A stretch of 32,000 bases of DNA from Phycisphaera mikurensis NBRC 102666 (GCF_000284115.1 NC_017080.1:630001-662000); one strand, 5' to 3'; shown: positions 2,082 through 27,864, counted from the stretch's first letter. Translations and numbers: made by a program. The notes: a model not told the origin generated them from the sequence alone.

Positions 2082-3503
2082 ATGCCCCACCCCCACATCG
2101 CGAAGGTCTTCAAGGCGTACGACGTGCGCGCCCTCTACCCGGATCCGCTCGACGAGCCGATCGCCGAGAAGATCGGCTACGGCGTGGGCGTGTTCCTGAA
2201 GAAGGGCAACGGCGGGGAGAAGGGGACCGTCGTGGTCTCGCGGGACCACCGCCCGGCGGCGCCCTCGATGGCCGAGGCCCTCATCCGCGGCATCCGCGCC
2301 GCCGGCATGGACGTCGTCGACCTGGGATCCTGCGACACCAGCATCCAGTACTTCGCGGTGCCGCACCTCGGCGCCGCCGGCGGCGTCCAGTGCACCGCCT
2401 CGCACAACCCCATCGAGTACATCGGCTTCAAGGTCTCGGCCAAGGGCGCCCGCCCGGTCGGCCGCGACACCGGGCTCGCCGAGATCCAGGCGACCGCCGA
2501 GGGCCTCGACGACGGCTTCCTCGCCGGCAAAGAGCAGGGGTCCTACGAGGAACGAGACATCTGGGAGGCGTACCGCAAGCACATCCTCCAGTTCCTCACC
2601 GGCGGCATTCAGCGGCCGCTGAAGCTCTTCGTCGACGCGAGCAACGGCATGGGCACGACCCTGCTGGAGAAGGTCTTCACCGGCGTGCCGAACCTGGAGA
2701 TCGTCTCGATCAACGCCGAGTACACCGACGACTGGGCCCACGAGCCCAACCCGCTGGTGCCCGAGAACATGCAGCCGACGGTGGAGGGCGTGAAGCGGAC
2801 GGGTGCCGACCTGGGGGCCTGCTTCGACGGCGACGCCGACCGCTGCATGCTCGTCGACGACCAGGGCAACCTCTGCGGCTGCGACCACCTGACCGCGTGG
2901 ATGGCCGGCCACTTCGTCAGCCGCAGCGCGACCGATCCGGGAACCGCAGACCCGACGACGATCGTCTACGACCTGCGGAGCTCCAAGGTCGTCGAGGAGA
3001 CGGTCCGCGGCCTGGGCGCGATCCCGGCGATGAGCAAGGTCGGCCACGTCAACATGAAGGCGCTGCTGCGGGAGACCGGCGGCGTCTTCGGCGGCGAGCT
3101 GTCGGGGCACTTCTACTTCCGCGACAACAGCTACGCCGACTCGGGGGCGATCACGCTCGCGGCGGCGCTCACCGTGCTCGGGCAGAACGACCAGAAGCTC
3201 AGCGAGCTGATCGGGCCCTACCGCAAGTACCCGCAGTCCGGCGAGATCAACTTCAAGAACGACGACAAGCAGGGGACGATCGACAAGCTGGAGGCGAGCT
3301 TCAAGGACCGCGCGAAGGAGATCCTCCACCTCGACGGCGTGTCGATCGACTGCTGGGACGACTGCGGCTACTGGTTCAATGTGAGGTCGAGCAACACCGA
3401 GCCGCTGCTGCGCTTGAACGCCGAGGCGAAGGACGAGGCGAAGCTCAAGGCGCTGATGGATGAGCTGATGCCGCAGATGGGGACGGTGGACGCCGGCCAC
3501 TGA
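2082..3503 (+). CDS. phosphomannomutase/phosphoglucomutase (alpha-D-phosphohexomutase family)
   Basis: Track ORF 1158..3503 trimmed to the in-frame ATG at 2082 (MPHPHIAKVFKAYDVRALYP). Catalytic-Ser loop CTASHNPIEY, Mg-binding FDGDADRC and sugar-binding GGELSGHFYF motifs are present. 473 aa. Confidence 0.9.
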   Translation: MPHPHIAKVFKAYDVRALYPDPLDEPIAEKIGYGVGVFLKKGNGGEKGTVVVSRDHRPAAPSMAEALIRGIRAAGMDVVDLGSCDTSIQYFAVPHLGAAGGVQCTASHNPIEYIGFKVSAKGARPVGRDTGLAEIQATAEGLDDGFLAGKEQGSYEERDIWEAYRKHILQFLTGGIQRPLKLFVDASNGMGTTLLEKVFTGVPNLEIVSINAEYTDDWAHEPNPLVPENMQPTVEGVKRTGADLGACFDGDADRCMLVDDQGNLCGCDHLTAWMAGHFVSRSATDPGTADPTTIVYDLRSSKVVEETVRGLGAIPAMSKVGHVNMKALLRETGGVFGGELSGHFYFRDNSYADSGAITLAAALTVLGQNDQKLSELIGPYRKYPQSGEINFKNDDKQGTIDKLEASFKDRAKEILHLDGVSIDCWDDCGYWFNVRSSNTEPLLRLNAEAKDEAKLKALMDELMPQMGTVDAGH

Positions 3504-9868: not shown

Positions 9869-11734
9869 TCAGCCCGCCGCCCGCAGCCGCGCCCGCAGGT
9901 CGGCCAGCAGCCGGCGGACCGGGACCGGCTCGCCGCCGCCGGCCACCGGCACCGCGGCGTCGGCCTCGGCCTGCGAACGCACGCGCTTGTCGGCGGTGAT
10001 GACGCCCGAGTGGCTGGGACGGCCCATCGCACGGGCGATCTCGGGGTAGCTCATCGCGGTCAGCTCGCGGGCGAGGTGGGCGACCAGGGCCCGGGCCTGC
10101 ACGACGACGCGGCTGCGGCCGGCGCCCAACGCCTCGCGGGGCTCCACCCCGAGGGCCTCGCCGACGATCTCCGCGATCGTGGCGACGCCGGCGGGGCCGG
10201 GGTTGAGCCGGCGCGGCGGCGGGCCGGGCCGCTCCAGGCGGCGGAGCCGCTCGACCAGGGCGGCGCCGACGGGGCGGCCCGGAGCGCCCGCCGGGGCCGC
10301 GCCCGCGGCGGCCGTCCGGCCCGGCGGCGGCGCCATCGCCTTGAGCCGGCCGCCGGGCCCCAGCCGGTCGAGCACGTCGAGCTTCGCGAGCAGGCCCTCG
10401 ATCTCGCGGACGCCGGGGCCGGCGAGCGGCTCGAGCGCGGCGGCGGCGTCCGCGTCGATCCGCAGCCCCCGGCGGGCGCCCAGCTCGGCGATGAGCGTCC
10501 GCCGCATCGCGGGCGCCGGCGCCTCGAGCTCGGCGACCAGGCCCTGCAGGCAGCGGCTGGACAGCGGCGTGCCCATCTCCTGCAGCTGCCGGGGGTGCCG
10601 GTCGGAGGCGAAGACGACCGGGACCCCGGCGGAGAGCGCCGCGTCGAAGCAGTGCAGCAGCTCGTGCTGGGTCTTCTGCTTCCCGGCGATGAAATGCACG
10701 TCGTCGACGGCGAGCAGGTGGCAGCCGCGGAACTCGCGGCGGAAGGCCGCGAGCGTGCCGCGGCGGGCGTGCTCGATGAAGCGGTTGGTGAAGCGTTCGC
10801 CGGTGGTGTGAACGACGCGGGAGCCGGGGCAGCGCTCCCGCCAGGCGGCGACGAGGCCGGTGACCAGGTGCGTCTTGCCGGTGCCGCAGGGCCCGTGCAC
10901 GAAGAGCGGGCCGTCGTGGTCGCCGGAGGCGAGGGCGGAGGCCGCCGCGAAGCCGAGCTCGTTGCAGGGGCCGGTGACGAAGTTGCCGAAGCGCTGCCCC
11001 GGGGTTGCGGAGCCGCCGCGCCGCCGGGTCGCTCCGCCCCCCGCGCGCCCGGTGCGGGCACCCCCGCCGCGGGCCGGCCGGCGGCCGGGGGTCCCCGCCG
11101 GCGCGGCTGGCGCGGCCGGCCGGCCCGCGGAAACCCCTTCCGCCGCGCCGCCGCCGGCTTCCGCCGCCGCGTCGGTGGGCGAGGGCCCGACGACCAGCCG
11201 CAGGTGCGGGTGCGGGCCGCGGCCCGCACCCGGCGCGCCGGCCGCCGCGGGATCGCACCCCGGGCCCGCCGCCGGCTGCGTCTCCGCGTCGGCCGCGCAG
11301 GAGGGCAGGCCCGCGCCGGCGGCGGCCTCGGAGAGCGCGTGCGCGAGGCCGCCCTGGCGGAGGCGATCGGCGGCGAAGCGGTGCGGCACCGCGAGCGTGA
11401 GCGCCCCGGTTTCGGGATCGAGCCCCAGGCCGCGGCCCCCGTCGATCCAGAGGCTGACCCGGCCCACGCCGAAGCGAGCCTCCAGCGGCCCGAGCAGCCG
11501 CTCCCGCAGGTCCGGCGTGAGCGCCGGCGGCCCGTTCCCGGTGCCCGCCGCCCGCCCGCCGGCGTCGGCCAGCCGCGGTCCCGCGGGCGCGGTTTTCCCC
11601 GGCAGGCCGGCGGCGGGTTCGTCCGGGAGGGGGGGAAGGGAGGGGAGGGCGCTCACGCTCGGGATCTTCAGGCGGCTGCGGACCCCGGGGCGGCGGGTGC
11701 CGGTGGGGTGCGTGGGGGGTGCGATCCGTCGCAT
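9869..11734 (-). CDS. dnaA: chromosomal replication initiator protein DnaA
   Basis: Track ORF 9869..12184 trimmed to ATG 11734 (MRRIAPPTHP). A GTG at about 11654 is an alternative start. AAA+ Walker A (HGPCGTGKTHL) and Walker B (LLAVDDVHF) are present. The C-terminal DNA-binding domain reads …MSYPEIARAMGRPSHSGVITADKRV…. It has long Pro/Ala/Gly linkers. Confidence 0.9.
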   Translation of the reverse strand: MRRIAPPTHPTGTRRPGVRSRLKIPSVSALPSLPPLPDEPAAGLPGKTAPAGPRLADAGGRAAGTGNGPPALTPDLRERLLGPLEARFGVGRVSLWIDGGRGLGLDPETGALTLAVPHRFAADRLRQGGLAHALSEAAAGAGLPSCAADAETQPAAGPGCDPAAAGAPGAGRGPHPHLRLVVGPSPTDAAAEAGGGAAEGVSAGRPAAPAAPAGTPGRRPARGGGARTGRAGGGATRRRGGSATPGQRFGNFVTGPCNELGFAAASALASGDHDGPLFVHGPCGTGKTHLVTGLVAAWRERCPGSRVVHTTGERFTNRFIEHARRGTLAAFRREFRGCHLLAVDDVHFIAGKQKTQHELLHCFDAALSAGVPVVFASDRHPRQLQEMGTPLSSRCLQGLVAELEAPAPAMRRTLIAELGARRGLRIDADAAAALEPLAGPGVREIEGLLAKLDVLDRLGPGGRLKAMAPPPGRTAAAGAAPAGAPGRPVGAALVERLRRLERPGPPPRRLNPGPAGVATIAEIVGEALGVEPREALGAGRSRVVVQARALVAHLARELTAMSYPEIARAMGRPSHSGVITADKRVRSQAEADAAVPVAGGGEPVPVRRLLADLRARLRAAG

Positions 11735-12251
11735 CCGTCTGATTCGGCGCTTCTTAGCGCTTCTTGGGGCGTCGCGGAGAGGCTTCGCGTTGGAGCTTCG
11801 CGCTGGGCCCGGCGTGGGGTGCGGCCTTCCGGCGTGGGCGCTGAGGCGTGAGGCTCGGGCTGGAGGCGCTGGCGTGGCCCGTTGGCGTGGCACCCGGGGT
11901 GCGTCGCGGCCTGTTCGGGGCCTGCGGCGTTCCGCCGGGAGGCCTCCCCGCCCGCCGCCTCCCGGGGGGGAGGCGGCCCGGGCGGGGCCCGGTGGCCGCC
12001 GCCCGGGAGCCCCCAAGCGGGGCCGGAGCGGCCGGTGGGCCGGGCCGACCGGGGCCGCCTCGGCGGCTCCGGCTGCCCCCCGCTCGGCGGACCCGCGGGG
12101 CGGGCTCCGGCGGCGGGGAGCGGCAGACACCACCCGTCCCTGGGCGGCCGGGCCCAGCCTAAATCCCCGCCGACCGCCGCGCACCCCGTCCGCCCCCGTC
12201 CCCGGTTCCGCCGGCGGGCCCGGGGGCGGAGGATCCGCCCTCAGCGTGCTT

Positions 12252-17130: not shown

Positions 17131-17324
17131 CGTTTGTCTTCGGTGGAAATCTCGCGGGTACGAACGCAGTCCTCGGCGGATCGGGCGACGGGCTCTCTCG
17201 GCGGCGCTCCGCTCCAAACTTGCACCGAACACTAGGCGCCGCCCCCGGCGCCGTCCACCGGCCCGCAGGAGAGGGGATCGCCTCTAGCCCATTAAGAAGA
17301 TGAGCGACAATCTTCGAAAAAGGC

Positions 17325-17353
17325 TTGACATCGCGTTCCCGCTTTGGCAACAT
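17325..17353 (+). promoter_or_regulatory. sigma70-type promoter candidate of prepilin cassette A
   Basis: TTGACA (17325-17330), a 17-nt spacer ending in TGG (extended -10-like TG), then CAACAT (17348-17353). An AT-rich tract lies upstream and contains the inverted repeat GAAGAT-N8-ATCTTC (17296-17315). Cassette B has the same architecture. Confidence 0.45.
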
Positions 17354-17811
17354 CCAAGGCCCCGCCGCGTTTCGCGTACCGGGCTCCGCTGGCACCCCTT
17401 TCCGGGGGCGTCGAGTCGCCAGAGTTTCTTCAGAATCTCGGATCTCTTCAAGCGATTTTCGAATGACCCCACCGGGCGTTCCGGTGCCGGTCCCGTGAGT
17501 CTCTTGAGGTTCCGACGCCTGGAACAGGCAACCGGCTGCCGGCCGGGATCGATGCGATCTTCCCCCTCCGCGACAGGGCGGGGCGGTCCCGCCGAGATCC
17601 ACCCACCGGTGTCGCCCGCACAACCCGAGGACTTCCCTCGGCACCCACGTGCGACCCTGCCATTGTTCATTCCCATTTCCCGCCGCTCCACCCTCATGGG
17701 TGGCAGCTCTCCGGGATCCGTCACCGGCTTCGGCCGCAGCCGGATGGCCGTTCGCAGACGAGAATCCTCCTTTGGTTCACCTCTTTCTTGACCCCATCTG
17801 GAGTCTTTCTC
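17354..17811 (+). promoter_or_regulatory. long conserved 5' leader of prepilin gene A (candidate structured cis-regulatory RNA)
   Basis: About 450 nt between the candidate promoter and the ATG. It aligns block-wise with 18992-19449 upstream of paralog B, and 1-nt indels rule out coding. Shared hairpins: CACCGG-gcgtt-CCGGTG (17470-17486 and 19105-19121), and a hairpin at the same offset with different sequence (17625-17641 CCGAGG/CCTCGG versus 19260-19277 GGTCGAG/CTCGGCC). Confidence 0.4.
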
Positions 17812-18762
17812 ATGCGTTCCACCCCCAAGAACGACGCCCTCTCCACCCGCACCGGCGCGGGCTTCACGCTGATCGAGCTGCTCGTGGTGATCTCGATCAT
17901 CGCGCTGTTGATCGGCATCCTCCTGCCGGCGCTGGGTGCGGCCCGCCGCACCGCCCGCCAGATGCAGAACAGCACGCAGCTGCGTGGCATCCACCAGGGC
18001 ATGTTCACGTACGCCCAGAGCAACAAGACCGGCGGCCGCGACGGCTACTACCCCGGCCTCAACGCCCAGGGCAAGGTCATCGAGAGCGACCCGAGCACGG
18101 TGATCCCCGCCGCTCAGATCGCTGCCGTGAGCGACGTCGAGGGCTACGGCATCGCCGGTGACGCCATTCCGACCGCCGCGCAGATGAACGGCGGCACGCT
18201 CGGCAACGGCGGCTTCGTCACCCGCGCCTTCGCCGAGCTCGCCTCCGGCGACTTCATCCCCGCCGGCTCCGCCGGGTACTTCATCAACCCCGCCGACACC
18301 AGCAAGACGGAGTTCGTCGCCGGCGGCACCGGCGCCGAAGGCGAGTTCAACTCCACGAAGATCAGTTACACCCCGCTGGACATCTCGGCCACGGCCGACG
18401 GCGGCACCCTGTACGCGGCCGAGTGGAAGGAGACCATCAACACCGCCGCGATGATCCTCGCGGACCGGGCGGTCAACGACGGCGACACGCTGCCCGGCGG
18501 CACCGACGCCTCCAGCGTCTGGACCGACGAGGGCTCCGGCGAGTGGCGTGGCTCGATCGTCCGCGGCGACGGCTCCACCAGCTTCGAGGCGAGCCCGGTG
18601 GCGGCCGAGTCGGGCCTGAAGTTCGGCAAGCGGACCTTCGTCGACGGCACCGTCGACAACCTCTTCGCGGCCCGCGGCGACGCCACCCTCGCCAGCGGCC
18701 AGGTTCCCTCGGACTTCGGCGTCTTCTTCGACGAAGCCGCCACCGATCCCGAGAACTTCTGA
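17812..18762 (+). CDS. prepilin-type N-terminal cleavage/methylation domain protein (pilin/pseudopilin-like), paralog A
   Basis: Track ORF 17788..18762 trimmed to ATG 17812, with GGAG at 17800-17803 (8 nt upstream). MRSTPKNDALSTRTGAG|FTLIELLVVISIIALLIGILLPAL has G-1, F+1 and E+5, followed by QMQNSTQLRGIHQG. No Cys. 316 aa. Confidence 0.85.
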   Translation: MRSTPKNDALSTRTGAGFTLIELLVVISIIALLIGILLPALGAARRTARQMQNSTQLRGIHQGMFTYAQSNKTGGRDGYYPGLNAQGKVIESDPSTVIPAAQIAAVSDVEGYGIAGDAIPTAAQMNGGTLGNGGFVTRAFAELASGDFIPAGSAGYFINPADTSKTEFVAGGTGAEGEFNSTKISYTPLDISATADGGTLYAAEWKETINTAAMILADRAVNDGDTLPGGTDASSVWTDEGSGEWRGSIVRGDGSTSFEASPVAAESGLKFGKRTFVDGTVDNLFAARGDATLASGQVPSDFGVFFDEAATDPENF

Positions 18763-18819
18763 TCGGCCGCATCGGAGCCGGCGACCGCTGCCCTCCGACA
18801 CCCGAGCGCCCATCCTTGA

Positions 18820-18851
18820 GAAGCCGGTCCCCGGGGGCCGGCTTCTTTTTT
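18820..18851 (+). terminator. rho-independent terminator of paralog A
   Basis: GAAGCCGG…CCGGCTTC stem (18820-18845, with extra inner pairs) followed directly by TTTTTT (18846-18851). Confidence 0.8.
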
Positions 18852-18962
18852 GCGCGTCACGCGGACCGGCCGAGGGCGTTCGGCGGCGCTAGCGAGAAGG
18901 AGCGACGGGGCGTGGGAGGTCCCGGGCAGCGGCCGATTCTTATAGGACATTCCGGCGAGTCC

Positions 18963-18991
18963 TTGACAGGCTGCCGCACCCCTGGCAGAAT
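18963..18991 (+). promoter_or_regulatory. sigma70-type promoter candidate of prepilin cassette B
   Basis: TTGACA (18963-18968), a 17-nt spacer ending in TGG, then CAGAAT (18986-18991). An AT-rich patch (gattcttataggacattcc) lies upstream. Confidence 0.45.
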
Positions 18992-19449
18992 GGGGCTTGT
19001 CCCGGCACTCCTCGGGACCCGCTGGCAGGCCTTTTCCGGGGGCTGCCGCGACGGACGAGTCATCCTCGCTCTTCGGCAGCTCCAGCGATCTTGGTTTCCT
19101 GCCCCACCGGGCGTTCCGGTGAGGCCCCGCGAGTCTTCTGAGGTTCATCCGCCTGGTTCAGGGCATCCGGCCGCCGGCCGGGACGTCAGCGATCTTTCCT
19201 CCCCGCGACAGGGCAGGACGGTCCCGCCGGCGTCCGCACACCGGTCACGCCAGCACGCCGGTCGAGTTCTCTCGGCCCACTCGTGCACCCATGCCATAGT
19301 CCATCCCTTGTCTCCCGGACTCCCGCCTCCCGAGGCGGGCCCCGTTCCGGGATCCGTGCCCGGCTTCGGCCGCGGGCGGACGGCCTGCCCCTGACGAGTG
19401 ACCCCCGACGGCTCGCATCTTCCCGTTGACCCCATCTGGAGTCTTTCTC
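18992..19449 (+). promoter_or_regulatory. long conserved 5' leader of prepilin gene B
   Basis: Same length class (about 450 nt) and same conserved blocks as leader A. The last 24 nt before the ATG are identical to A. Confidence 0.4.
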
Positions 19450-20394
19450 ATGCGTTCCACCCCCAAGAACGACGCTCTTTACACCCGCACCGGCGCGGGC
19501 TTCACGCTGATCGAGCTGCTCGTGGTCATCTCGATCATCGCGCTGCTGATCGGCATCCTCCTGCCGGCGCTGGGTGCGGCCCGCCGCACCGCCCGCCAGA
19601 TGCAGAACAGCACGCAGCTGCGTGGCATCCACCAAGGCATGTTCACCTACGCCCAGAGCAACAAGACCGGCGGCCGCGACGGCTACTACCCCGGCCTCGA
19701 CGCCCAGGGCAAGACGATCGTCGTCGCCGACGAGATCCCTGAGGAACAGCTCGCCGCCGACGGCAACGTGCCCGGTTACGCGGCCGCGTCCATCGCCAAC
19801 GTTCTTCCCGCGGAGATGAACACCAACATCACCACCGGTTTCATCACGCGGGCCTTCGCCGAGCTCGCCTCCGGCGACTTCATCCCCGCCGGCTCCGCCG
19901 GGTACTTCATCAACCCCGCGGACACCACCAAGTCCGAATTCGTTGCGGGTGCTGCCGCTCCCGAGGGTGAGTTCAACGCCGCGAAGATCAGCTACACGCC
20001 GCTGGACATCTCCAAGAACACCGGAGGCGGAACAGCCGTCTACCCCTACAGCGGTGAGTGGAAGGAAACCATCAACACGCAGGCCATGATCATGGCCGAC
20101 CGCGCCGTGGGTGAGGGTGATGACCTGATTGCCGCCACGCCCGATGGCTCCAGCGTCTGGACCGACGAGGGCTCCGGCGAGTGGCGTGGCTCGATCGTCC
20201 GCGGCGACGGCTCGACGAGCTTCGAGGCCTCCCCCGTCTTCACCGACGTCGGCCTCAAGTACGGCAAGCGCGTCTTCGTGGACGGCGACGTCGACAACAT
20301 CTTCGCCAGTGCTCTGACCATCACCGCCGGCGAGATCGAGGACGAGTCCGGGATCTTCTACGACGAGGCCGGCACGGCCGCCGAGAACTTCTGA
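19450..20394 (+). CDS. prepilin-type N-terminal cleavage/methylation domain protein (pilin/pseudopilin-like), paralog B
   Basis: Track ORF 19426..20394 trimmed to ATG 19450, with GGAG at 19438-19441. The first 86 aa differ from paralog A at 2 residues. Shared internal blocks include AFAELASGDFIPAGSAGYFINPAD and SSVWTDEGSGEWRGSIVRGDGSTSFEASPV, and both C-termini end in ENF. 314 aa. Confidence 0.85.
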   Translation: MRSTPKNDALYTRTGAGFTLIELLVVISIIALLIGILLPALGAARRTARQMQNSTQLRGIHQGMFTYAQSNKTGGRDGYYPGLDAQGKTIVVADEIPEEQLAADGNVPGYAAASIANVLPAEMNTNITTGFITRAFAELASGDFIPAGSAGYFINPADTTKSEFVAGAAAPEGEFNAAKISYTPLDISKNTGGGTAVYPYSGEWKETINTQAMIMADRAVGEGDDLIAATPDGSSVWTDEGSGEWRGSIVRGDGSTSFEASPVFTDVGLKYGKRVFVDGDVDNIFASALTITAGEIEDESGIFYDEAGTAAENF

Positions 20395-20432
20395 GCGGGC
20401 GGAGGCCGCGGCCTCCTTCCTGATCCATCGAC

Positions 20433-20465
20433 GAAGCCGGCTCGACGAGGGCCGGCTTCTGTTTT
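20433..20465 (+). terminator. rho-independent terminator of paralog B
   Basis: GAAGCCGGC (20433-20441), a 9-nt loop, GCCGGCTTC (20451-20459), then TGTTTT (20460-20465). Confidence 0.7.
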
Positions 20466-20762
20466 GCGCTCCGGGCACACCGATGCGGAGCCAGGCGGAC
20501 CGCCGAGCCGCGACGGGGCTCGATGACGGCCGAAGGCGATGCCGATGCCCGATGCGGCCTGCCGACGCGATTGGACTCCACGCTGATCGAGTCCTACACG
20601 GTTGGAAGCACCCCGCTTCTCGCGGAGTCCACCGGTGGCGACTGTGGCCTCGATTCGGCCGTGTCCGGCGCGGCGCACCGATCCGCCAAGCGGGTCCGCC
20701 CGGCCGCGCCGCTCGCTTCCGGCCGCCCCCGAACCCGCGCCTCGCCGTCGCGGGAGGTCCCC

Positions 20763-20868
20763 GTGTCGCGCATCCGGCGTTTCCGCGACACGTCCCGCCG
20801 ACATGTCGCAGCCCGCGACATCAGCTTCCGGTCATGTCGCAGAAAGGACGAAAAGAGAACATGTCGCG
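20763..20868 (+). promoter_or_regulatory. array of GCGACA(T/C) / (A/G)TGTCGC inverted repeats across the fic 5' region and start codon
   Basis: GTGTCGC (20763-20769) pairs with GCGACAC (20785-20791). CGACATGTCG (20799-20808) is a palindrome. GCGACAT (20815-20821) pairs with ATGTCGC (20834-20840). A further ATGTCGC at 20861-20867 contains the chosen start codon. Confidence 0.35.
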
Positions 20869-21991
20869 GCCGGTGTGGCGGCCCCAGCACCCGTGGAACG
20901 GGTTGCCCGCGCTCCAGAAGAGCGTCGCGGCTTTCGAAACCGTTCCGGTGCTCCGCCGGTGCATCCGCTCCCGGGCGGCGCTCGCGGAGCTGAAGCAGGC
21001 GGCGGAGCGGTTCCCGAACCAGGCGGTGCTCATCGGGACGATCCCGCTGCTGGAGGCCCAGGCGAGCTCCGCGATCGAGAACATCGTCACCACGCAGGAT
21101 CAGCTCTTCCGGCTCCAACGGGCGGAGGACGTGGCCGATCCTGCGGCGAAGGAGGCCCTGCGCTACCGCCACGCGCTCCTGGAGGGCTTCGCCACGCTGC
21201 GGGATCGGCCGCTGACCACCGCCACGGCCGAAGCCGTCTGCGGCCGCATCCGCGGCGTCGAGACGCGCGTGCGGCCGATGGCCGGCACCACGCTCGCAAA
21301 CCCCGCCACCGGCGAGGTCGTCTACACACCGCCCGAGGGGGAGGACCGTCTGCGCAGGATGCTCGCGGCGTGGGAGCGGTACCCCAACGAGCCTTCGGAG
21401 CTGGACCCGCTGATCCGCATGGCGGCGGGGCACCACCAGTTCGAAGCCATCCACCCCTTTCACGACGGCAACGGCCGCACCGGCCGGATCCTCAACAGCC
21501 TCTTCCTGATCCAGGAGGAGCTGCTGACGCTGCCCGTCCTGTACCTCAGCCGGTACATCATCGCCCACAAAGCGGAGTATTACGGGCTTCTGTTGGAGGT
21601 CACGCGCAGCGCCGCGTGGGAGCCTTGGATCCTCTACATGCTCCGCGGCGTGGAGGAGACCGCGATCTGGACGACCGCGAAGATCGGCGGGATCCGCCGC
21701 CTCTTCGACGAGACGGTGGAGCACGTGCGGGCCACCGTCCCCCGCACGTACCGGCACGAGCTGATCGTCCTGCTCTTCGAGCAGCCGTACCTCCGCATCC
21801 AGAACCTCTTCGAGGCCGGGATCGCGCAGCGGCAGGCGGCGTCCCGCCAGCTCCGCCAGCTGGTCGACGCCGGCGTGCTCCGGGAGGTGGAAGCCGGGCG
21901 CGAGAAGCTCTTTTTGAACCCGCGCCTGATGCGTCTGCTCACCAGCGACAGCAACGGCTGGACGCCGTTCCCGGGCCCCGCGGGCAGATGA
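20861..21991 (+). CDS. Fic family protein (class II, N-terminal Fic_N/inhibitory helix, C-terminal winged-helix-like tail)
   Basis: Track ORF 20483..21991 trimmed to ATG 20861 (MSRPVWRPQHPWNGLP), which follows a purine-rich aaaggacgaaaagagaac. An in-frame ATG at 20834 is an alternative. The Fic active-site motif HPFHDGNGRTGR is present. The N-terminal EAQASSAIENIVTT fits the (S/T)xxxE(G/N) auto-inhibition motif. Confidence 0.9.
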   Translation: MSRPVWRPQHPWNGLPALQKSVAAFETVPVLRRCIRSRAALAELKQAAERFPNQAVLIGTIPLLEAQASSAIENIVTTQDQLFRLQRAEDVADPAAKEALRYRHALLEGFATLRDRPLTTATAEAVCGRIRGVETRVRPMAGTTLANPATGEVVYTPPEGEDRLRRMLAAWERYPNEPSELDPLIRMAAGHHQFEAIHPFHDGNGRTGRILNSLFLIQEELLTLPVLYLSRYIIAHKAEYYGLLLEVTRSAAWEPWILYMLRGVEETAIWTTAKIGGIRRLFDETVEHVRATVPRTYRHELIVLLFEQPYLRIQNLFEAGIAQRQAASRQLRQLVDAGVLREVEAGREKLFLNPRLMRLLTSDSNGWTPFPGPAGR

Positions 21992-25974: not shown

Positions 25975-27462
25975 ATGAGTCGGATCAACACCAACGTCAG
26001 CTCCTTGCTCGCACAGCGATCGCTGGGAGCCACCAACAGAACCCTCAACCAGTCGCTCGAGCGGCTGTCCACGGGCCTCCGCATCAACCGCGGTGCGGAC
26101 GATCCCGCCGGCCTGATCGCCAGCGAGAACCTGCGGAGCCAGAAGGTCTCCATCACCTCGGCCATCGACAACGCCGAGCGTGCCGAGCAGGTCGTCAACA
26201 TCGCCGAGGGCGGCCTCGGCGAGATCAACAGCCTCCTGCTGGAGGTCCAGAGCCTCGTCGGGGCGTCGGCCAACGAGGCCGGCATCTCCGACGCGGAGAA
26301 GGAGGCCAACCAGCTGGAGATCGACTCGATCGTCCAGACGATCGACCGGATCGCCAGCACCACCAGCTTCCAGGGCACCAAGCTGCTCAACGGCAACTAC
26401 GGCTTCCAGACCGAAGCCGTCGACGCCAACGTGGAGAACATCACCGTCAACGCCGCGAAGATCCCCTTCGGCGAGAGCCGCGACGTGGAGGTCCTCGTGA
26501 CCGGCGAGGCCCAGAAGGGCGGCGTCGTGCTCTCCTTCGGCGGCACGGAGGTCAGCGGCACCGGCGGCGAGCTGTTCACCATCGACGTCACCGGCACCGG
26601 CGGCTCCCGCCAGTTCACCTTCGCCAGCGGCACCGGCATCGCCGACATCAGCTCCGCCATCAACACCTTCTCCGACGTCACCGGCGTCACCGCCTCGGCC
26701 AGCGGCACGGCGCTGAACCTCAGCTCCGAGGGCTTCGGCTCCGACGACTTCGTCTCGATCGACGTCGTGAACGCCGCCGGGCTCACCGGCAACGTGGCCC
26801 GCCTCTCCGGTGCCGCCGTCCAGGCCAGCGACCCGGGCACCACCGCCCTCGCCGACGTCACCAGCCCGCTGCGGGACGAGGGCGTCGACGTCAAGGCGAC
26901 GATCAACGGCGTCAACGCGACCGGCAAGGGCCTCGAGGCGAAGATCAGCACCGACTTCCTCGACGTCGCGGTGGAGCTCAAGGAGTCCGGCAACACCGTC
27001 GGCAAGAACGAGGCCGCGACGATCACCGGCGGCGGGGCGACGTTCAACCTCGGGCCCAACGTCGACATCGGCAACCAGGTCTCGATCGGCATCAACAACG
27101 TCGCCGCCCGCAACCTCGGCCGCGTCGGCTCGGACACCCTCGCCAGCCTCTCCTCGGGCAGCGGCCTCAACGTGGTCGACGGCGACCTCACCCAGGCCCA
27201 GAAGGTCGTCAACGCGGCCATCACCGAGGTCGCCGGCCTCCGCGGCCGCCTGGGCGCTTTCCAGAAGAACACCGTCGGCTCGACCATCCGCAGCCTCGGC
27301 GTCGCCCTGGAGAACACCTCCGCCGCCGAGTCGTCGATCCGCGACACCGACTTCGCCGCCGAAACCGCCGCCCTCACCCGGGCCCAGGTCCTCCAGCAGG
27401 CCGCGACCAGCACCTTGAGCCTCGCGAACAGCGCCCCGCAGAGCGTGCTCGGCCTCCTGTAA
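25975..27462 (+). CDS. fliC: flagellin
   Basis: N-terminus MSRINTNVSSLLAQRSLGATNRTLNQSLERLSTGLRINRGADDPAGL. C-terminus …RGRLGAFQKNTVGSTIRSL…IRDTDFAAETAALTRAQVLQQAATSTLSLANSAPQSVLGLL. These are the canonical D0/D1 flagellin termini. 495 aa. Confidence 0.95.
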   Translation: MSRINTNVSSLLAQRSLGATNRTLNQSLERLSTGLRINRGADDPAGLIASENLRSQKVSITSAIDNAERAEQVVNIAEGGLGEINSLLLEVQSLVGASANEAGISDAEKEANQLEIDSIVQTIDRIASTTSFQGTKLLNGNYGFQTEAVDANVENITVNAAKIPFGESRDVEVLVTGEAQKGGVVLSFGGTEVSGTGGELFTIDVTGTGGSRQFTFASGTGIADISSAINTFSDVTGVTASASGTALNLSSEGFGSDDFVSIDVVNAAGLTGNVARLSGAAVQASDPGTTALADVTSPLRDEGVDVKATINGVNATGKGLEAKISTDFLDVAVELKESGNTVGKNEAATITGGGATFNLGPNVDIGNQVSIGINNVAARNLGRVGSDTLASLSSGSGLNVVDGDLTQAQKVVNAAITEVAGLRGRLGAFQKNTVGSTIRSLGVALENTSAAESSIRDTDFAAETAALTRAQVLQQAATSTLSLANSAPQSVLGLL

Positions 27463-27724: not shown

Positions 27725-27864
27725 GAGGCCCGACGCCTCCTGGAGAGGCGGTCGGGCCCGGTGCGCGGGCGGGCACGTGAACCGGGTCAGGCCTTGACCG
27801 GAGCAGCCCTAAGCGTCGTCCGCCCGGCGCCGCCGGTGTTCTGACCGTCTCTCCAGCGGGCCTC
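27725..27864 (+). ncRNA. ffs: signal recognition particle RNA (4.5S-like) candidate
   Basis: Long imperfect hairpin. A 14-bp stem pairs 27740-27753 with 27843-27856 (one G.U). An outer 8-bp stem pairs 27725-27732 with 27857-27864. Inner helices are CCGG/CCGG and GGGCGG/CCGCCC. The apical region ACCGGGUCAGG-CCUUGACCGG-AGCAGCCCUAAG aligns with E. coli 4.5S ACCAGGUCAGG-UCCGGAAGGA-AGCAGCCAAGG, with the same AGG/AGCA symmetric-loop residues, the same ACC asymmetric loop and the same 10-nt apex length. It sits directly upstream of dnaX, as scr does in B. subtilis. The apical loop is not GNRA and the ends are uncertain. Confidence 0.55.

What the first reader, a model, noticed from the sequence alone, without database searches (positions are those of the whole stretch)
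17325..20465. Tandem, independently expressed prepilin-type gene cassettes with mosaic near-identity suggesting segmental gene conversion; no pilus or T2SS assembly genes nearby
Units A (17325-18851) and B (18963-20465) each carry TTGACA-N17-CA(A/G)(C/A)AT, a leader of about 450 nt, a GGAG 8 nt before the ATG, a 314-316-aa prepilin-type protein (…RTGAG|FTLIELLVV, E+5) and its own hairpin plus T-run terminator. Nucleotide identity is strongly mosaic. The 24 nt upstream plus the first 264 nt of the CDS differ at only 8 positions, of which 6 are synonymous. 18226-18293 equals 19852-19919 (68/68). 18510-18575 equals 20148-20213 (66/66). The intervening segments (about aa 87-135, 190-215 and the last 40 aa or so) are heavily diverged and contain indels. 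Identical synonymous sites next to saturated divergence fit repeated segmental gene conversion or cassette exchange between a constant scaffold and variable surface segments, as in pilin variation. Simple post-duplication drift does not explain this pattern. The proteins lack the usual C-terminal Cys pair and share a conserved …ENF C-terminus.
Basis: seen in the sequence. Interest (0 to 1): 0.7.

Follow-up and report, generated by a model that had tools for sequence, protein, structure and literature searches.

The report
Tandem pilin-like genes homogenised by gene conversion
Two neighbouring genes for pilin-like proteins in Phycisphaera mikurensis have repeatedly copied short conserved stretches onto each other while their variable parts stayed different, which is ordinary concerted evolution rather than a pilin-switching system; each gene also carries a conserved 450-base leader that has not been described before.

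Summary
The window is Phycisphaera mikurensis chromosome. Genes A (17812-18762) and B (19450-20394) encode Cys-free prepilin-type proteins of 316 and 314 aa. Each has a TTGACA-N17 promoter, a leader of about 450 nt, a GGAG and a hairpin/T-run terminator.

Three A=B tracts stand out: 288 nt with 8 differences, 68/68 and 66/66. Elsewhere synonymous sites are saturated. A metagenomic relative (L006) is closer to A in all variable segments (85% vs 56% aa). Inside the tracts A groups with B: 39 sites against 4, versus 29 against 134 outside (P=4e-19). This is gene conversion between A and B after the split from that relative.

The pilin-variation reading is not supported. Conversion homogenises the conserved blocks. 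Both genes are complete, and the window holds no silent cassettes. The low divergence of the alpha1 block is partly a family-wide feature.

Two syntenic loci in relatives hold one gene here, so the tandem pair is lineage-specific.

The promoter is conserved at four loci and the non-coding leader at six. The leader has no Rfam match and shows some covariation, so it may be a new cis-regulatory RNA. The 230-aa globular domain has no Pfam, NCBIfam or PDB match.

The parts
17325..17353 (+). Promoter of unit A: TTGACA (17325-17330), 17-nt spacer, CAACAT (17348-17353)
   Evidence: Read directly from the sequence. CTTGACA-N17-YARMAT is conserved in A, B, L005 and L030.
17360..17811 (+). 5' leader of unit A, about 450 nt, non-coding. 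From about 17450 onward it is conserved with B and with four loci in relatives.
   Evidence: nhmmer finds six full-length leader matches. No reading frame stands out. There is no Rfam match. Folding z-score is -2.8.
17470..17486 (+). Leader hairpin H1 of A: CACCGG-GCGTT-CCGGTG
   Evidence: Three of its pairs change on both sides (CG/AU/UA, GC/CG, GC/AU) across six loci.
17658..17673 (+). Invariant leader core motif TGCCATTGTTCATTCC, 154 nt upstream of the ATG
   Evidence: Exact pattern matches in A, B, L004, L005, L030 and L028, all 154-177 nt upstream of the ATG (154 in A, 177 in L004).
17800..17803 (+). Shine-Dalgarno GGAG of A, 8 nt before the ATG
   Evidence: Sequence.
17812..18762 (+). 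Gene A: 316-aa prepilin-type protein. It has a 17-aa leader peptide, the G|F cleavage site, Glu+5, an alpha1 helix over residues 20-70, then a globular domain of about 230 aa with no known family.
   Evidence: P0001, 100% identity, Phycisphaera mikurensis; AF2 pLDDT 91.7.
18818..18853 (+). Intrinsic terminator of A: 13-bp GC-rich stem followed by TTTTTT
   Evidence: Fold energy -29.3 kcal/mol, z-score -3.5.
18963..18991 (+). Promoter of unit B: TTGACA, 17-nt spacer, CAGAAT
   Evidence: Promoter scan gives 10 of 12 matches, with TG before the -10 element. Conservation is shown.
18998..19449 (+). 5' leader of unit B, about 450 nt, homologous to the leader of A (about 75% identity over the 3' 340 nt)
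   Evidence: z-score -1.4.
19105..19121 (+). Leader hairpin H1 of B
   Evidence: -16.3 kcal/mol, z-score -2.5.
19292..19307 (+). Leader core motif of B: TGCCATAGTCCATCCC
19450..20394 (+). Gene B: 314-aa prepilin-type paralogue, 73% aa identity to A overall and 56% in the variable segments
   Evidence: (P0003).
20433..20465 (+). Intrinsic terminator of B
   Evidence: Terminator scan. Fold energy -23.6 kcal/mol.
17788..18075 (+). Conversion tract 1, equal to B 19426-19713. It covers the last 24 nt of the leader, the signal peptide and the alpha1 helix; 8 differences in 288 nt.
   Evidence: Triplet sites AB|L against AL|B are 18:2 in the signal-peptide part and 6:2 in the helix part. Leader peptide identity is 94% for A-B against 25% for A-P0002.
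18226..18293 (+). Conversion tract 2, equal to B 19852-19919 (68/68). It encodes RAFAELASGDFIPAGSAGYFINP.
   Evidence: Triplet sites are 6:0. Codon difference as a fraction of saturation is 0.12 for A-B against 0.59 for A-L006.
18510..18575 (+). Conversion tract 3, equal to B 20148-20213 (66/66). It encodes SSVWTDEGSGEWRGSIVRGDGS.
   Evidence: Triplet sites are 9:0. Codon difference as a fraction of saturation is 0.11 for A-B against 0.98 for A-L006.

Best explanation
Units A and B are two complete, separately transcribed paralogous genes of Phycisphaera mikurensis. They encode class-III-signal (prepilin-type) proteins of an uncharacterised pilin-like family found mainly in Phycisphaerae.

Shown:
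- The A/B split is older than the split between P. mikurensis and its closest sequenced relative (L006).
- After that split, at least three short segments were made identical or nearly identical between A and B. The first runs from 24 nt upstream of the ATG through the signal peptide and the alpha1 helix. The other two are internal tracts of 66 and 68 bp that encode the family's most conserved motifs.
- The intervening segments have saturated synonymous sites and carry indels.

Inferred:
- The mechanism is RecA-type non-reciprocal recombination (gene conversion) between direct repeats 1.64 kb apart.
- Tracts start and end inside blocks kept alike by purifying selection. They stop where homology is lost, or where selection keeps the two surfaces different.
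- The 5' tract probably ran from B to A. The leader peptide shared by A and B is the odd one in the clade, whereas L006 resembles the other members.
- The proteins are cleaved after Gly17 by a prepilin peptidase encoded elsewhere. They are anchored or polymerised through the near-invariant alpha1 helix by a type II secretion or type IV pilus-like machine. The variable segments after alpha1 and at the C-terminus would then be exposed.
- Each gene is driven by a conserved sigma-70-type promoter through a conserved, probably structured leader of about 450 nt, which is likely to be regulatory.
For: Identity and heterogeneity:
- Heterogeneous dS is shown.
- After normalising for codon bias, A-B is at saturation outside the tracts (ratio 1.0-1.4) but at 0.11-0.19 inside them. 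A-L006 is 0.59 and 0.98 in blocks 2 and 3.

Phylogenetic incongruence:
- Triplet sites AB|L against AL|B are 39:4 inside the tracts and 29:134 outside (Fisher P=4e-19). Blocks 2 and 3 alone give 15:0 (P=1e-10).
- In variable regions aa identity is 85% for A-P0002, 56% for A-B and 55% for B-P0002. In the leader peptide it is 94% for A-B and 25% for A-P0002.

Locus history:
- L005 and L030 keep the order SDR, DUF3072, one prepilin gene, with GT2 before SDR in L005 and Fic after the prepilin gene in L030.

Protein class:
- N_methyl and TIGR02532 score above their cut-offs.
- AF2 gives pLDDT 91.7, with a helix over residues 20-70 followed by a mixed alpha/beta domain.

Expression signals:
-.

Leader:
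- Six loci carry it, it is not coding, and it shows a covariation signal.
Against: - L006 is known only from contigs of 1.2 and 2.0 kb, and its downstream flank is unrelated to the window. Strict orthology with A is therefore unproven. Part of the AB|L signal could come from conversion of L006 by another paralogue in its own genome.
- The alpha1 block shows low synonymous divergence in most pairs, for example a ratio of 0.29 for L005-L030. For that part alone, conversion is not statistically separable from constraint (P=0.24).
- Run-length permutation tests are also 'significant' for pairs from different genomes. They are inflated by rate heterogeneity, and I do not rely on them.
- Nothing here shows transcription, peptidase cleavage or filament assembly.
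- The leader structure rests on six sequences, and the structure tested was derived from those same sequences.
- The reverse strand folds with lower consensus energy.
Confidence: 0.75

Rival explanations
1. There was no recombination. The identical tracts are simply the most strongly selected protein blocks, and extreme GC3 codon bias (75% G+C genome) removes nearly all synonymous variation there.
For: The tracts coincide with the family's most conserved protein blocks. Two-fold codons are almost fixed, with a probability of differing of 0.03-0.11 for K, I, N, Y, Q and F. The alpha1 block is below saturation in most pairs.
Against: With the same amino acids and the same bias, A against L006 differs at 14 of 42 codons in blocks 2 and 3, while A against B differs at 2 of 43 (Fisher P=7e-4; binomial P=7e-6). 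Other blocks with conserved amino acids (KISYTPLDIS, EWKETINT) carry synonymous differences between A and B. The signal peptide is not conserved in the family, yet it is 94% identical between A and B.
Confidence: 0.04
2. This is a programmed pilin-type variation system, as in Neisseria pilE/pilS. Variable cassettes would be shuffled between copies, or brought in from silent donors, using the constant blocks as recombination anchors to change the exposed surface at high frequency.
For: The alternation of constant and variable segments and the pilin-like N-terminus resemble pilE. Conversion between the copies does occur.
Against: Both copies are intact and have their own promoter and terminator. 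No partial or silent copy is in the window. No third close paralogue of P. mikurensis appears among the 120 best homologues. The variable segments of A have remained orthologue-like, at 85% identity to P0002, so they have not been exchanged with B since the split. G4 motifs are at background density, 21 in 32 kb. The organism is a free-living marine bacterium with no obvious immune pressure; this last point is from my own knowledge.
Confidence: 0.06
3. The tandem duplication is recent. The identical tracts are what remains of the original identity, and the variable segments diverged very fast under diversifying selection.
For: Two syntenic loci in relatives hold only one gene. dN is high in the variable segments, 0.4-0.9.
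Against: Synonymous sites outside the tracts are saturated between A and B (ratio 1.0-1.4) but not between A and L006 (0.56-0.89). AL|B sites outnumber AB|L sites 134 to 29 outside the tracts. B is therefore an outgroup to A plus L006, and the duplication predates that split. Fast amino-acid change does not raise dS.
Confidence: 0.08
4. This is an assembly or sequencing artefact, with reads from two repeats collapsed or mixed.
For: Tandem repeats 1.6 kb apart can be mis-assembled from short reads.
Against: The same protein sequences are attached to 2 contigs in the collection, the longest 3,803,225 bp, that is, chromosome-sized. Both reading frames are intact, and the tract borders fall at natural homology boundaries. 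Mixing of reads would not give clean blocks of 66-68 bp flanked by indel-rich divergent DNA.
Confidence: 0.02

Closest known systems
Concerted evolution of bacterial paralogues by short-tract gene conversion (for example the tufA/tufB duplicates of Salmonella; example recalled from my own knowledge)
   Same: Non-reciprocal homogenisation between two expressed paralogues in one chromosome. Synonymous sites are identical inside the tracts. The paralogues group together against an orthologue from another genome.
   Different: Here only three short segments are homogenised (288, 68 and 66 nt), and the rest of the gene is saturated. The result is a mosaic rather than a near-identical pair.
Neisseria pilE/pilS pilin antigenic variation (PMC13463697, PMC13321361, PMC4023411)
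   Same: The substrate is a pilin-type gene with alternating constant and variable segments, and DNA moves between copies by gene conversion.
   Different: Neisseria moves variable segments from promoterless silent pilS copies into one expression locus, started by a G4/R-loop. Here the conserved segments are what is exchanged. Both copies are complete and have promoters, and no silent cassettes were found.
Type II secretion major pseudopilin GspG and type IV pilins
   Same: Class III signal peptide, G|F cleavage site, Glu+5, a hydrophobic alpha1 helix, and no disulphide, as in GspG (the GspG comparison is from my own knowledge).
   Different: These proteins are twice the size, with a globular domain of about 230 aa that matches no PDB chain by Foldseek (best E=1.8) and no Pfam or NCBIfam model. 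The GspG model scores 31.5 bits against a cut-off of 88.85. No assembly genes are nearby.
Planctomycete DUF1559 (PF07596) paralogue families with prepilin-type N-termini (PMC10632474, PMC2754498)
   Same: A large family restricted to one lineage, of unknown function, with a pilin-like N-terminus, scattered over the genome away from secretion genes.
   Different: PF07596 does not match A, B or any of 119 family members. This family is distinct and was found mainly in Phycisphaerae; its C-terminal domain alone recovers 203 clusters at 50% identity.
c-di-GMP riboswitch leaders upstream of pilin genes (for example Clostridioides difficile pilA1; recalled from my own knowledge)
   Same: A long, conserved and apparently structured 5' leader upstream of a pilin-type gene.
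   Different: No Rfam family, including the c-di-GMP classes, matches either leader even at E up to 5. The leader is about 400 nt, far larger than known riboswitch aptamers.

Membership tests
Prepilin-type (class III signal peptide) proteins | N-terminal motif: short polar leader ending in Gly, then F/M at +1, Glu at +5 and about 20 hydrophobic residues | tested here: met
   Both proteins carry ...RTGAG|FTLIELLVVISIIALLIGILL. Pfam N_methyl scores 25.5 and 25.7 bits (cut-off 21.2), and TIGR02532 scores 23.5 and 23.7 bits (cut-off 16.3).
Prepilin-type (class III signal peptide) proteins | A long N-terminal alpha1 helix packed on a globular beta-sheet-containing domain | tested here: met
   The AF2 model has pLDDT 91.7, a helix over residues 20-70, then helices and seven strands. 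I could not inspect the coordinates.
Prepilin-type (class III signal peptide) proteins | Cleavage and N-methylation by a PilD/GspO-type prepilin peptidase, and assembly by a T2SS/T4P machine | not testable with these tools
   No such genes are in the 32-kb window. The rest of the genome could not be scanned.
GspG, T2SS major pseudopilin (TIGR01710) | Full-length match above the curated cut-off | tested here: not met
   Score 31.5 bits against a cut-off of 88.85, and only residues 17-68 match.
DUF1559 / SBP_bac_10 (PF07596) | Pfam match of the C-terminal domain | tested here: not met
   No hit at E up to 0.1 for A or B. No hit at E up to 0.01 for any of 119 family members.
Gene conversion between paralogues | Phylogenetic incongruence along the gene: the paralogues group together in the tracts, and the orthologues group together outside them | tested here: met
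   AB|L against AL|B is 39:4 inside the tracts and 29:134 outside, P=4e-19.
Gene conversion between paralogues | Synonymous sites homogenised in the tracts, beyond what codon bias and constraint explain | tested here: met
   Blocks 2 and 3 together: 2 of 43 codons differ, against 17.7 expected at saturation and 14 of 42 for A-L006. The alpha1 block alone is inconclusive (P=0.24).
Neisseria-type pilin antigenic variation | Promoterless silent donor cassettes that hold the variable segments | tested here: not met
   blastn and tblastn of both units against the window find nothing outside 17300-20480 better than E=0.001 over 24 nt. No third close P. mikurensis paralogue appears. The whole genome was not scanned.
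Neisseria-type pilin antigenic variation | Exchange of the variable segments, not the constant ones, between copies | tested here: not met
   Variable segments of A are 85% identical to P0002 but only 56% identical to B. The converted tracts are the conserved blocks.
Neisseria-type pilin antigenic variation | A G-quadruplex-forming initiator upstream of the expressed gene | tested here: inconclusive
   One G4 pattern lies on the minus strand at 19305-19331, in the leader of B only. There are 21 such patterns in 32 kb, which is background density.
Structured cis-regulatory leader RNA (candidate new family) | A conserved non-coding sequence between a conserved promoter and the start codon, found in several genomes and loci | tested here: met
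   nhmmer finds six full leaders with E from 1e-70 to 1e-96, plus a partial one in L003/L006. The promoter is conserved. All six reading frames score alike.
Structured cis-regulatory leader RNA (candidate new family) | Base pairs supported by compensatory changes beyond the controls | tested here: inconclusive
   21 pairs change on both sides, against 9.8+-2.1 in shuffles (0 of 500 reach the observed value) and 4-10 in slid controls. Cells paired are 91% against 84%. There are only six sequences, and the structure tested was derived from them. The reverse strand folds better.
Known Rfam families | A covariance-model match | tested here: not met
   Nothing in 17250-20500 reaches a gathering score. 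The best hits are E=0.13 and E=0.25, both outside the leaders.

The most novel reading that the evidence does not exclude
The conserved leader of about 400 nt is a new structured cis-regulatory RNA. Its features are hairpin H1, the invariant core TGCCATYGTYCATYCC, and long-range helices that enclose the middle part. It travels with this subfamily of pilin-like genes to at least three different genomic contexts and controls their expression. In parallel, gene conversion would keep the alpha1 helix and two core motifs of co-resident paralogues identical, so that alternative subunits with different surfaces can enter the same filament.
Probability: 0.3. Interest if true: 0.6.

Novelty: new member of a known kind. 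Interest (0 to 1): 0.4.

Why it matters
The result gives a clean, statistically solid case of short-tract gene conversion shaping a pilin-like gene pair in Planctomycetota, a phylum in which these very abundant prepilin-type families have no known function. The pattern shows which parts of the protein must stay the same in co-resident paralogues: the signal peptide, the alpha1 helix and two internal motifs. It also shows which parts are free to differ. That is a testable hint that the two proteins share one processing and assembly route but present different surfaces.

The work also flags two undescribed objects. One is a pilin-like globular domain, seen mainly in Phycisphaerae, with a confident predicted fold and no database match. 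The other is a conserved long leader that may be a new regulatory RNA.

It also corrects the more exciting reading. Nothing here suggests a programmed antigenic-variation machine.

Tried and rejected
- Run-length (Sawyer-type) permutation test. It gives P<=0.0002 for A-B, but pairs from different genomes are also 'significant'. I dropped it because rate heterogeneity inflates it, and used the triplet test instead.
- Genome-collection scan. It returned only two distant loci and not P. mikurensis itself, so a genome-wide search for further copies or silent cassettes was not possible.
- Metagenome scan. It gave one useful locus (L006); the other hits were distant homologues or fragments (28-50% identity over most of the protein; L026 is 76% over a 41-residue piece) and none carries the leader.
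- The region downstream of L006 was checked for a B orthologue. It is unrelated to the window.
- A hidden small ORF in the leader is rejected. B has ATG-CCA-TAG at the core motif, and all six frames score alike.
- Known riboswitches or other Rfam families in the leader are rejected.
- A sigma-54 or ECF promoter reading of the core motif was rejected by inspection, because the spacing does not fit. This is inference only.
- Leader homologues upstream of more distant family members (L029, L031, L032, L033, L034 and L007-L027): none found.
- A G4 initiator is at background density.
- Literature searches for this family in Phycisphaerae or Planctomycetes found nothing specific.

Full report
**What the window is.** Protein A is 100% identical to a 'type II secretion system protein' of Phycisphaera mikurensis carried on a 3.8-Mb contig, and protein B is the second-best hit from that organism. 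The window has 74.8% G+C. Around the two genes lie phosphoglucomutase, an MMPL transporter, an aspartyl protease, DnaA, a GNAT, a family-2 glycosyltransferase (GT2), an SDR and DUF3072. Then come A, B, a Fic protein, IspG, AccA, prephenate dehydrogenase, flagellin, SRP RNA, DnaX, LpxA and LpxC/FabZ.

**Check of the observation.** Every element is where it was reported.
- The two CDSs are 17812-18762 and 19450-20394. Both begin MRSTPKNDAL(S/Y)TRTGAG|FTLIELLVV and pass the N_methyl and TIGR02532 thresholds.
- The TTGACA-N17-CAACAT and TTGACA-N17-CAGAAT sites, the GGAG 8 nt before each ATG, and the two hairpin/T-run terminators (-29.3 and -23.6 kcal/mol) are all present.
- The alignment of the two units gives exactly the reported numbers: 8 differences, 6 of them synonymous, in 17788-18075; 68/68 at 18226-18293; and 66/66 at 18510-18575.
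- Between these tracts identity is 0.5-0.75, with indels.
- Sliding-window Nei-Gojobori dS is about 0-0.2 in the three tracts and 0.45-2.3 elsewhere, including where the amino acids are conserved.
- Neither protein has Cys, and both end in ENF.

**Is the mosaic more than constraint plus codon bias?** In a genome this G+C-rich, two-fold codons are almost fixed, so I normalised. For each codon with the same amino acid in both genes, I took the chance that two draws from the family's codon usage differ.
- Outside the tracts A against B is at saturation, with observed/expected ratios of 1.0-1.4.
- Inside the tracts the ratio is 0.19 for residues 1-88, 0.12 for block 2 and 0.11 for block 3.

The key control is a metagenomic relative, L003/L006, the same gene on two contigs with 86% aa identity to A.
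- In the variable segments A is much closer to it (85% aa) than to B (56%).
- In blocks 2 and 3, however, A and the relative differ at 14 of 42 identical-amino-acid codons, while A and B differ at 2 of 43 (Fisher P=7e-4; binomial P=7e-6).

Site-by-site triplet analysis gives the same picture. Sites that group A with B against the relative, compared with sites that group A with the relative against B, are:

| Segment | AB\|L : AL\|B |
|---|---|
| Signal-peptide codons | 18 : 2 |
| Rest of the alpha1 block | 6 : 2 |
| Block 2 | 6 : 0 |
| Block 3 | 9 : 0 |
| Three variable segments | 8 : 42, 10 : 51, 11 : 41 |

Tracts against the rest give P=4e-19. The leader peptide, which is not conserved in the family, is 94% identical between A and B but only 25% identical between A and the relative. 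This mosaic phylogeny is the signature of gene conversion between A and B after the split from the relative's lineage.

**Caveats on the conversion evidence.**
- The alpha1-helix block has below-saturation synonymous divergence in almost all pairs, even between genomes. L005-L030 has a ratio of 0.29 there and about 1 elsewhere.
- For residues 17-88 alone, A-B (4/69) is not significantly lower than A-relative (9/70).
- My run-length permutation test is inflated by the same heterogeneity, and I do not rely on it.
- The relative is known only from short contigs, and its downstream flank is unrelated to the window. Strict orthology is therefore not shown. The argument needs only that A shares a more recent ancestor with it than with B, which the variable segments show.

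**History of the locus.** Two loci from a metagenome, L005 and L030, are syntenic with the window. L005 shows GT2, SDR and DUF3072 upstream of the prepilin gene, and L030 shows SDR and DUF3072 upstream and Fic downstream. Each holds a single prepilin-type gene where P. mikurensis has two. Because B is an outgroup to A plus the relative, the duplication, or the insertion of a paralogue, is older than that split but confined to this lineage. The leader peptide shared by A and B is the unusual one in the clade, while the relative resembles the other members. The 5' tract was therefore probably copied from B into A. This direction is an inference.

**What the proteins are.** Only the N-terminal 50-70 residues match anything known: pilins and pseudopilins in Pfam, NCBIfam and PDB sequence searches.
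- GspG scores 31.5 bits against a cut-off of 88.85.
- DUF1559, the well-known planctomycete pilin-like family (PMC10632474, PMC2754498), does not match A, B or any of 119 relatives.
- AlphaFold2 with a 119-sequence alignment gives a confident model (pLDDT 91.7). It has a helix over residues 20-70 followed by a mixed alpha/beta domain.
- The C-terminal 231 residues alone recover 203 clusters at 50% identity, and the full protein recovers thousands of hits. Those that carry a source name are labelled Planctomycetota, Algisphaera or Phycisphaera.

The family alignment shows that the three conversion tracts coincide with the family's most conserved blocks: alpha1 through YYPGL, FAELASGDFIPAGSxxYFINPAD, and SSVWTDxGSGEWRGSxxRNDGSTSFE. 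The divergent parts are the segment after alpha1, a middle loop and the C-terminal 60 residues. By analogy with the alpha-beta loop and D-region of type IV pilins, these would be exposed. I could not inspect the model coordinates, so this is inference.

**Why this is not pilin-type antigenic variation.** In Neisseria, variable segments move from promoterless pilS copies into pilE, started by a G4/R-loop (PMC13463697, PMC4023411). The situation here differs on each point.
- The conserved segments are what was exchanged. The variable segments of A have stayed orthologue-like.
- Both copies are complete transcription units.
- No further copy or fragment exists in the window.
- No third close P. 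mikurensis paralogue is among the 120 best hits.
- G4 patterns are at background density.

**The leader.** The promoter CTTGACA-N17-YARMAT is conserved in A, B, L005 and L030, which supports a long 5' UTR.
- A profile of the leader finds six full copies: A, B, L005, L030, L028 and L004. They sit in at least three different genomic contexts, with E from 1e-70 to 1e-96. The 83 nt available in L003/L006 give a partial match.
- Seven other, more distant family loci with upstream sequence lack the leader.
- An invariant core, TGCCATYGTYCATYCC, sits 154-177 nt upstream of each ATG.
- The similarity is not protein-coding.
- No Rfam family matches, even at E up to 5.
- RNAalifold predicts 74 pairs. 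These include a 5' hairpin (CACCGG-GCGUU-CCGGUG in A and B, GCCCGG...CCGGGC in three loci, GUCCGA...UCGGAU in L004) and long-range helices that enclose the middle of the leader.
- Counted against controls, 91% of cells pair, against 84% in shuffles. Twenty-one pairs change on both sides, against 9.8+-2.1 in shuffles (0 of 500 reach the observed value) and 4-10 when partners are slid.
- Single-sequence z-scores are -2.8 and -1.4.

With six sequences, and a structure derived from those same sequences, this is suggestive rather than conclusive. The G-rich reverse strand gives an even lower consensus energy, so the strand assignment rests on the promoter and on gene orientation.

**Verdict.** The phenomenon is a new example of a known kind: concerted evolution of conserved blocks in paralogues. 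The more original by-products are an undescribed pilin-like globular domain family and a conserved long leader that may be a new regulatory RNA.

Noticed in passing
window 17360-17811 and 18998-19449; L005:5593-6003; L030:2083-2503; L028:2-393; L004:5615-6003: A non-coding leader of about 400 nt is conserved upstream of this pilin-like subfamily in at least three genomic contexts. It has an invariant core TGCCATYGTYCATYCC, hairpins supported by covariation, and no Rfam match. It may be a new cis-regulatory RNA.
   Followed up: partly
window 17860-18075 and the same codons in L004, L005, L028 and L030: Synonymous divergence in the alpha1-helix coding block is well below saturation in almost all pairs, even between genomes (L005-L030 ratio 0.29 against about 1 elsewhere). 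Block 3 is also low for L004-L005 and L028-L005 (0.24). Possible causes are recurrent conversion among paralogues, gene flow, or nucleotide-level constraint. This remains unexplained.
   Followed up: partly
window 18067-18759 (residues 86-316 of A): The globular domain of about 230 aa has a confident AF2 model (pLDDT 91.7) but no Pfam, NCBIfam or PDB sequence match and no Foldseek-PDB match. It recovers 203 clusters at 50% identity. This is an undescribed pilin-like domain family.
   Followed up: partly
window 9869-12181 (-): A DnaA homologue (Bac_DnaA plus Bac_DnaA_C domains) is present, so the window may lie near the replication origin. I did not examine GC skew or DnaA boxes.
   Followed up: no
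window 20483-21991 (+); L030:4359-5339: A Fic/SoFic-like gene lies directly downstream of B and is syntenic in L030. The long ORF begins far upstream of the Fic_N domain (residue 157), so the true start is probably later.
   Followed up: no
window 25975-27462 (+) and 27750-27849 (+): A flagellin gene and the small SRP RNA (Rfam RF00169, 46.3 bits).
   Followed up: no
L032:529-1419 and 1501-2436: A protein ending in a PEP-CTERM-like tail (PEPASLALLATGGLVLLRRRRA) sits 81 nt upstream of the prepilin-type paralogue P0021. This may be a functional link between the two sorting systems.
   Followed up: no
L029:1-654 and 2501-3472: A second case of two N_methyl genes in tandem, about 1.85 kb apart, in a metagenome-assembled relative. 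This pair lacks the conserved leader.
   Followed up: no
L028:211-1341: The public gene call P0006 (376 aa) starts inside the conserved leader. The true start is probably the MRSTKN codon at L028:391.
   Followed up: yes
alignment A3 / family C-termini: In the 30-member alignment A3 most proteins (25 of 30) end in a hydrophobic residue, usually F (ENF, DADF, GAGF, PNAF) or I. The terminal residue may be structurally or functionally important.
   Followed up: no
window 19305-19331 (-): A G-quadruplex pattern lies on the minus strand immediately after the core motif in the leader of B only. There are 21 such patterns in 32 kb, so it is probably chance.
   Followed up: yes
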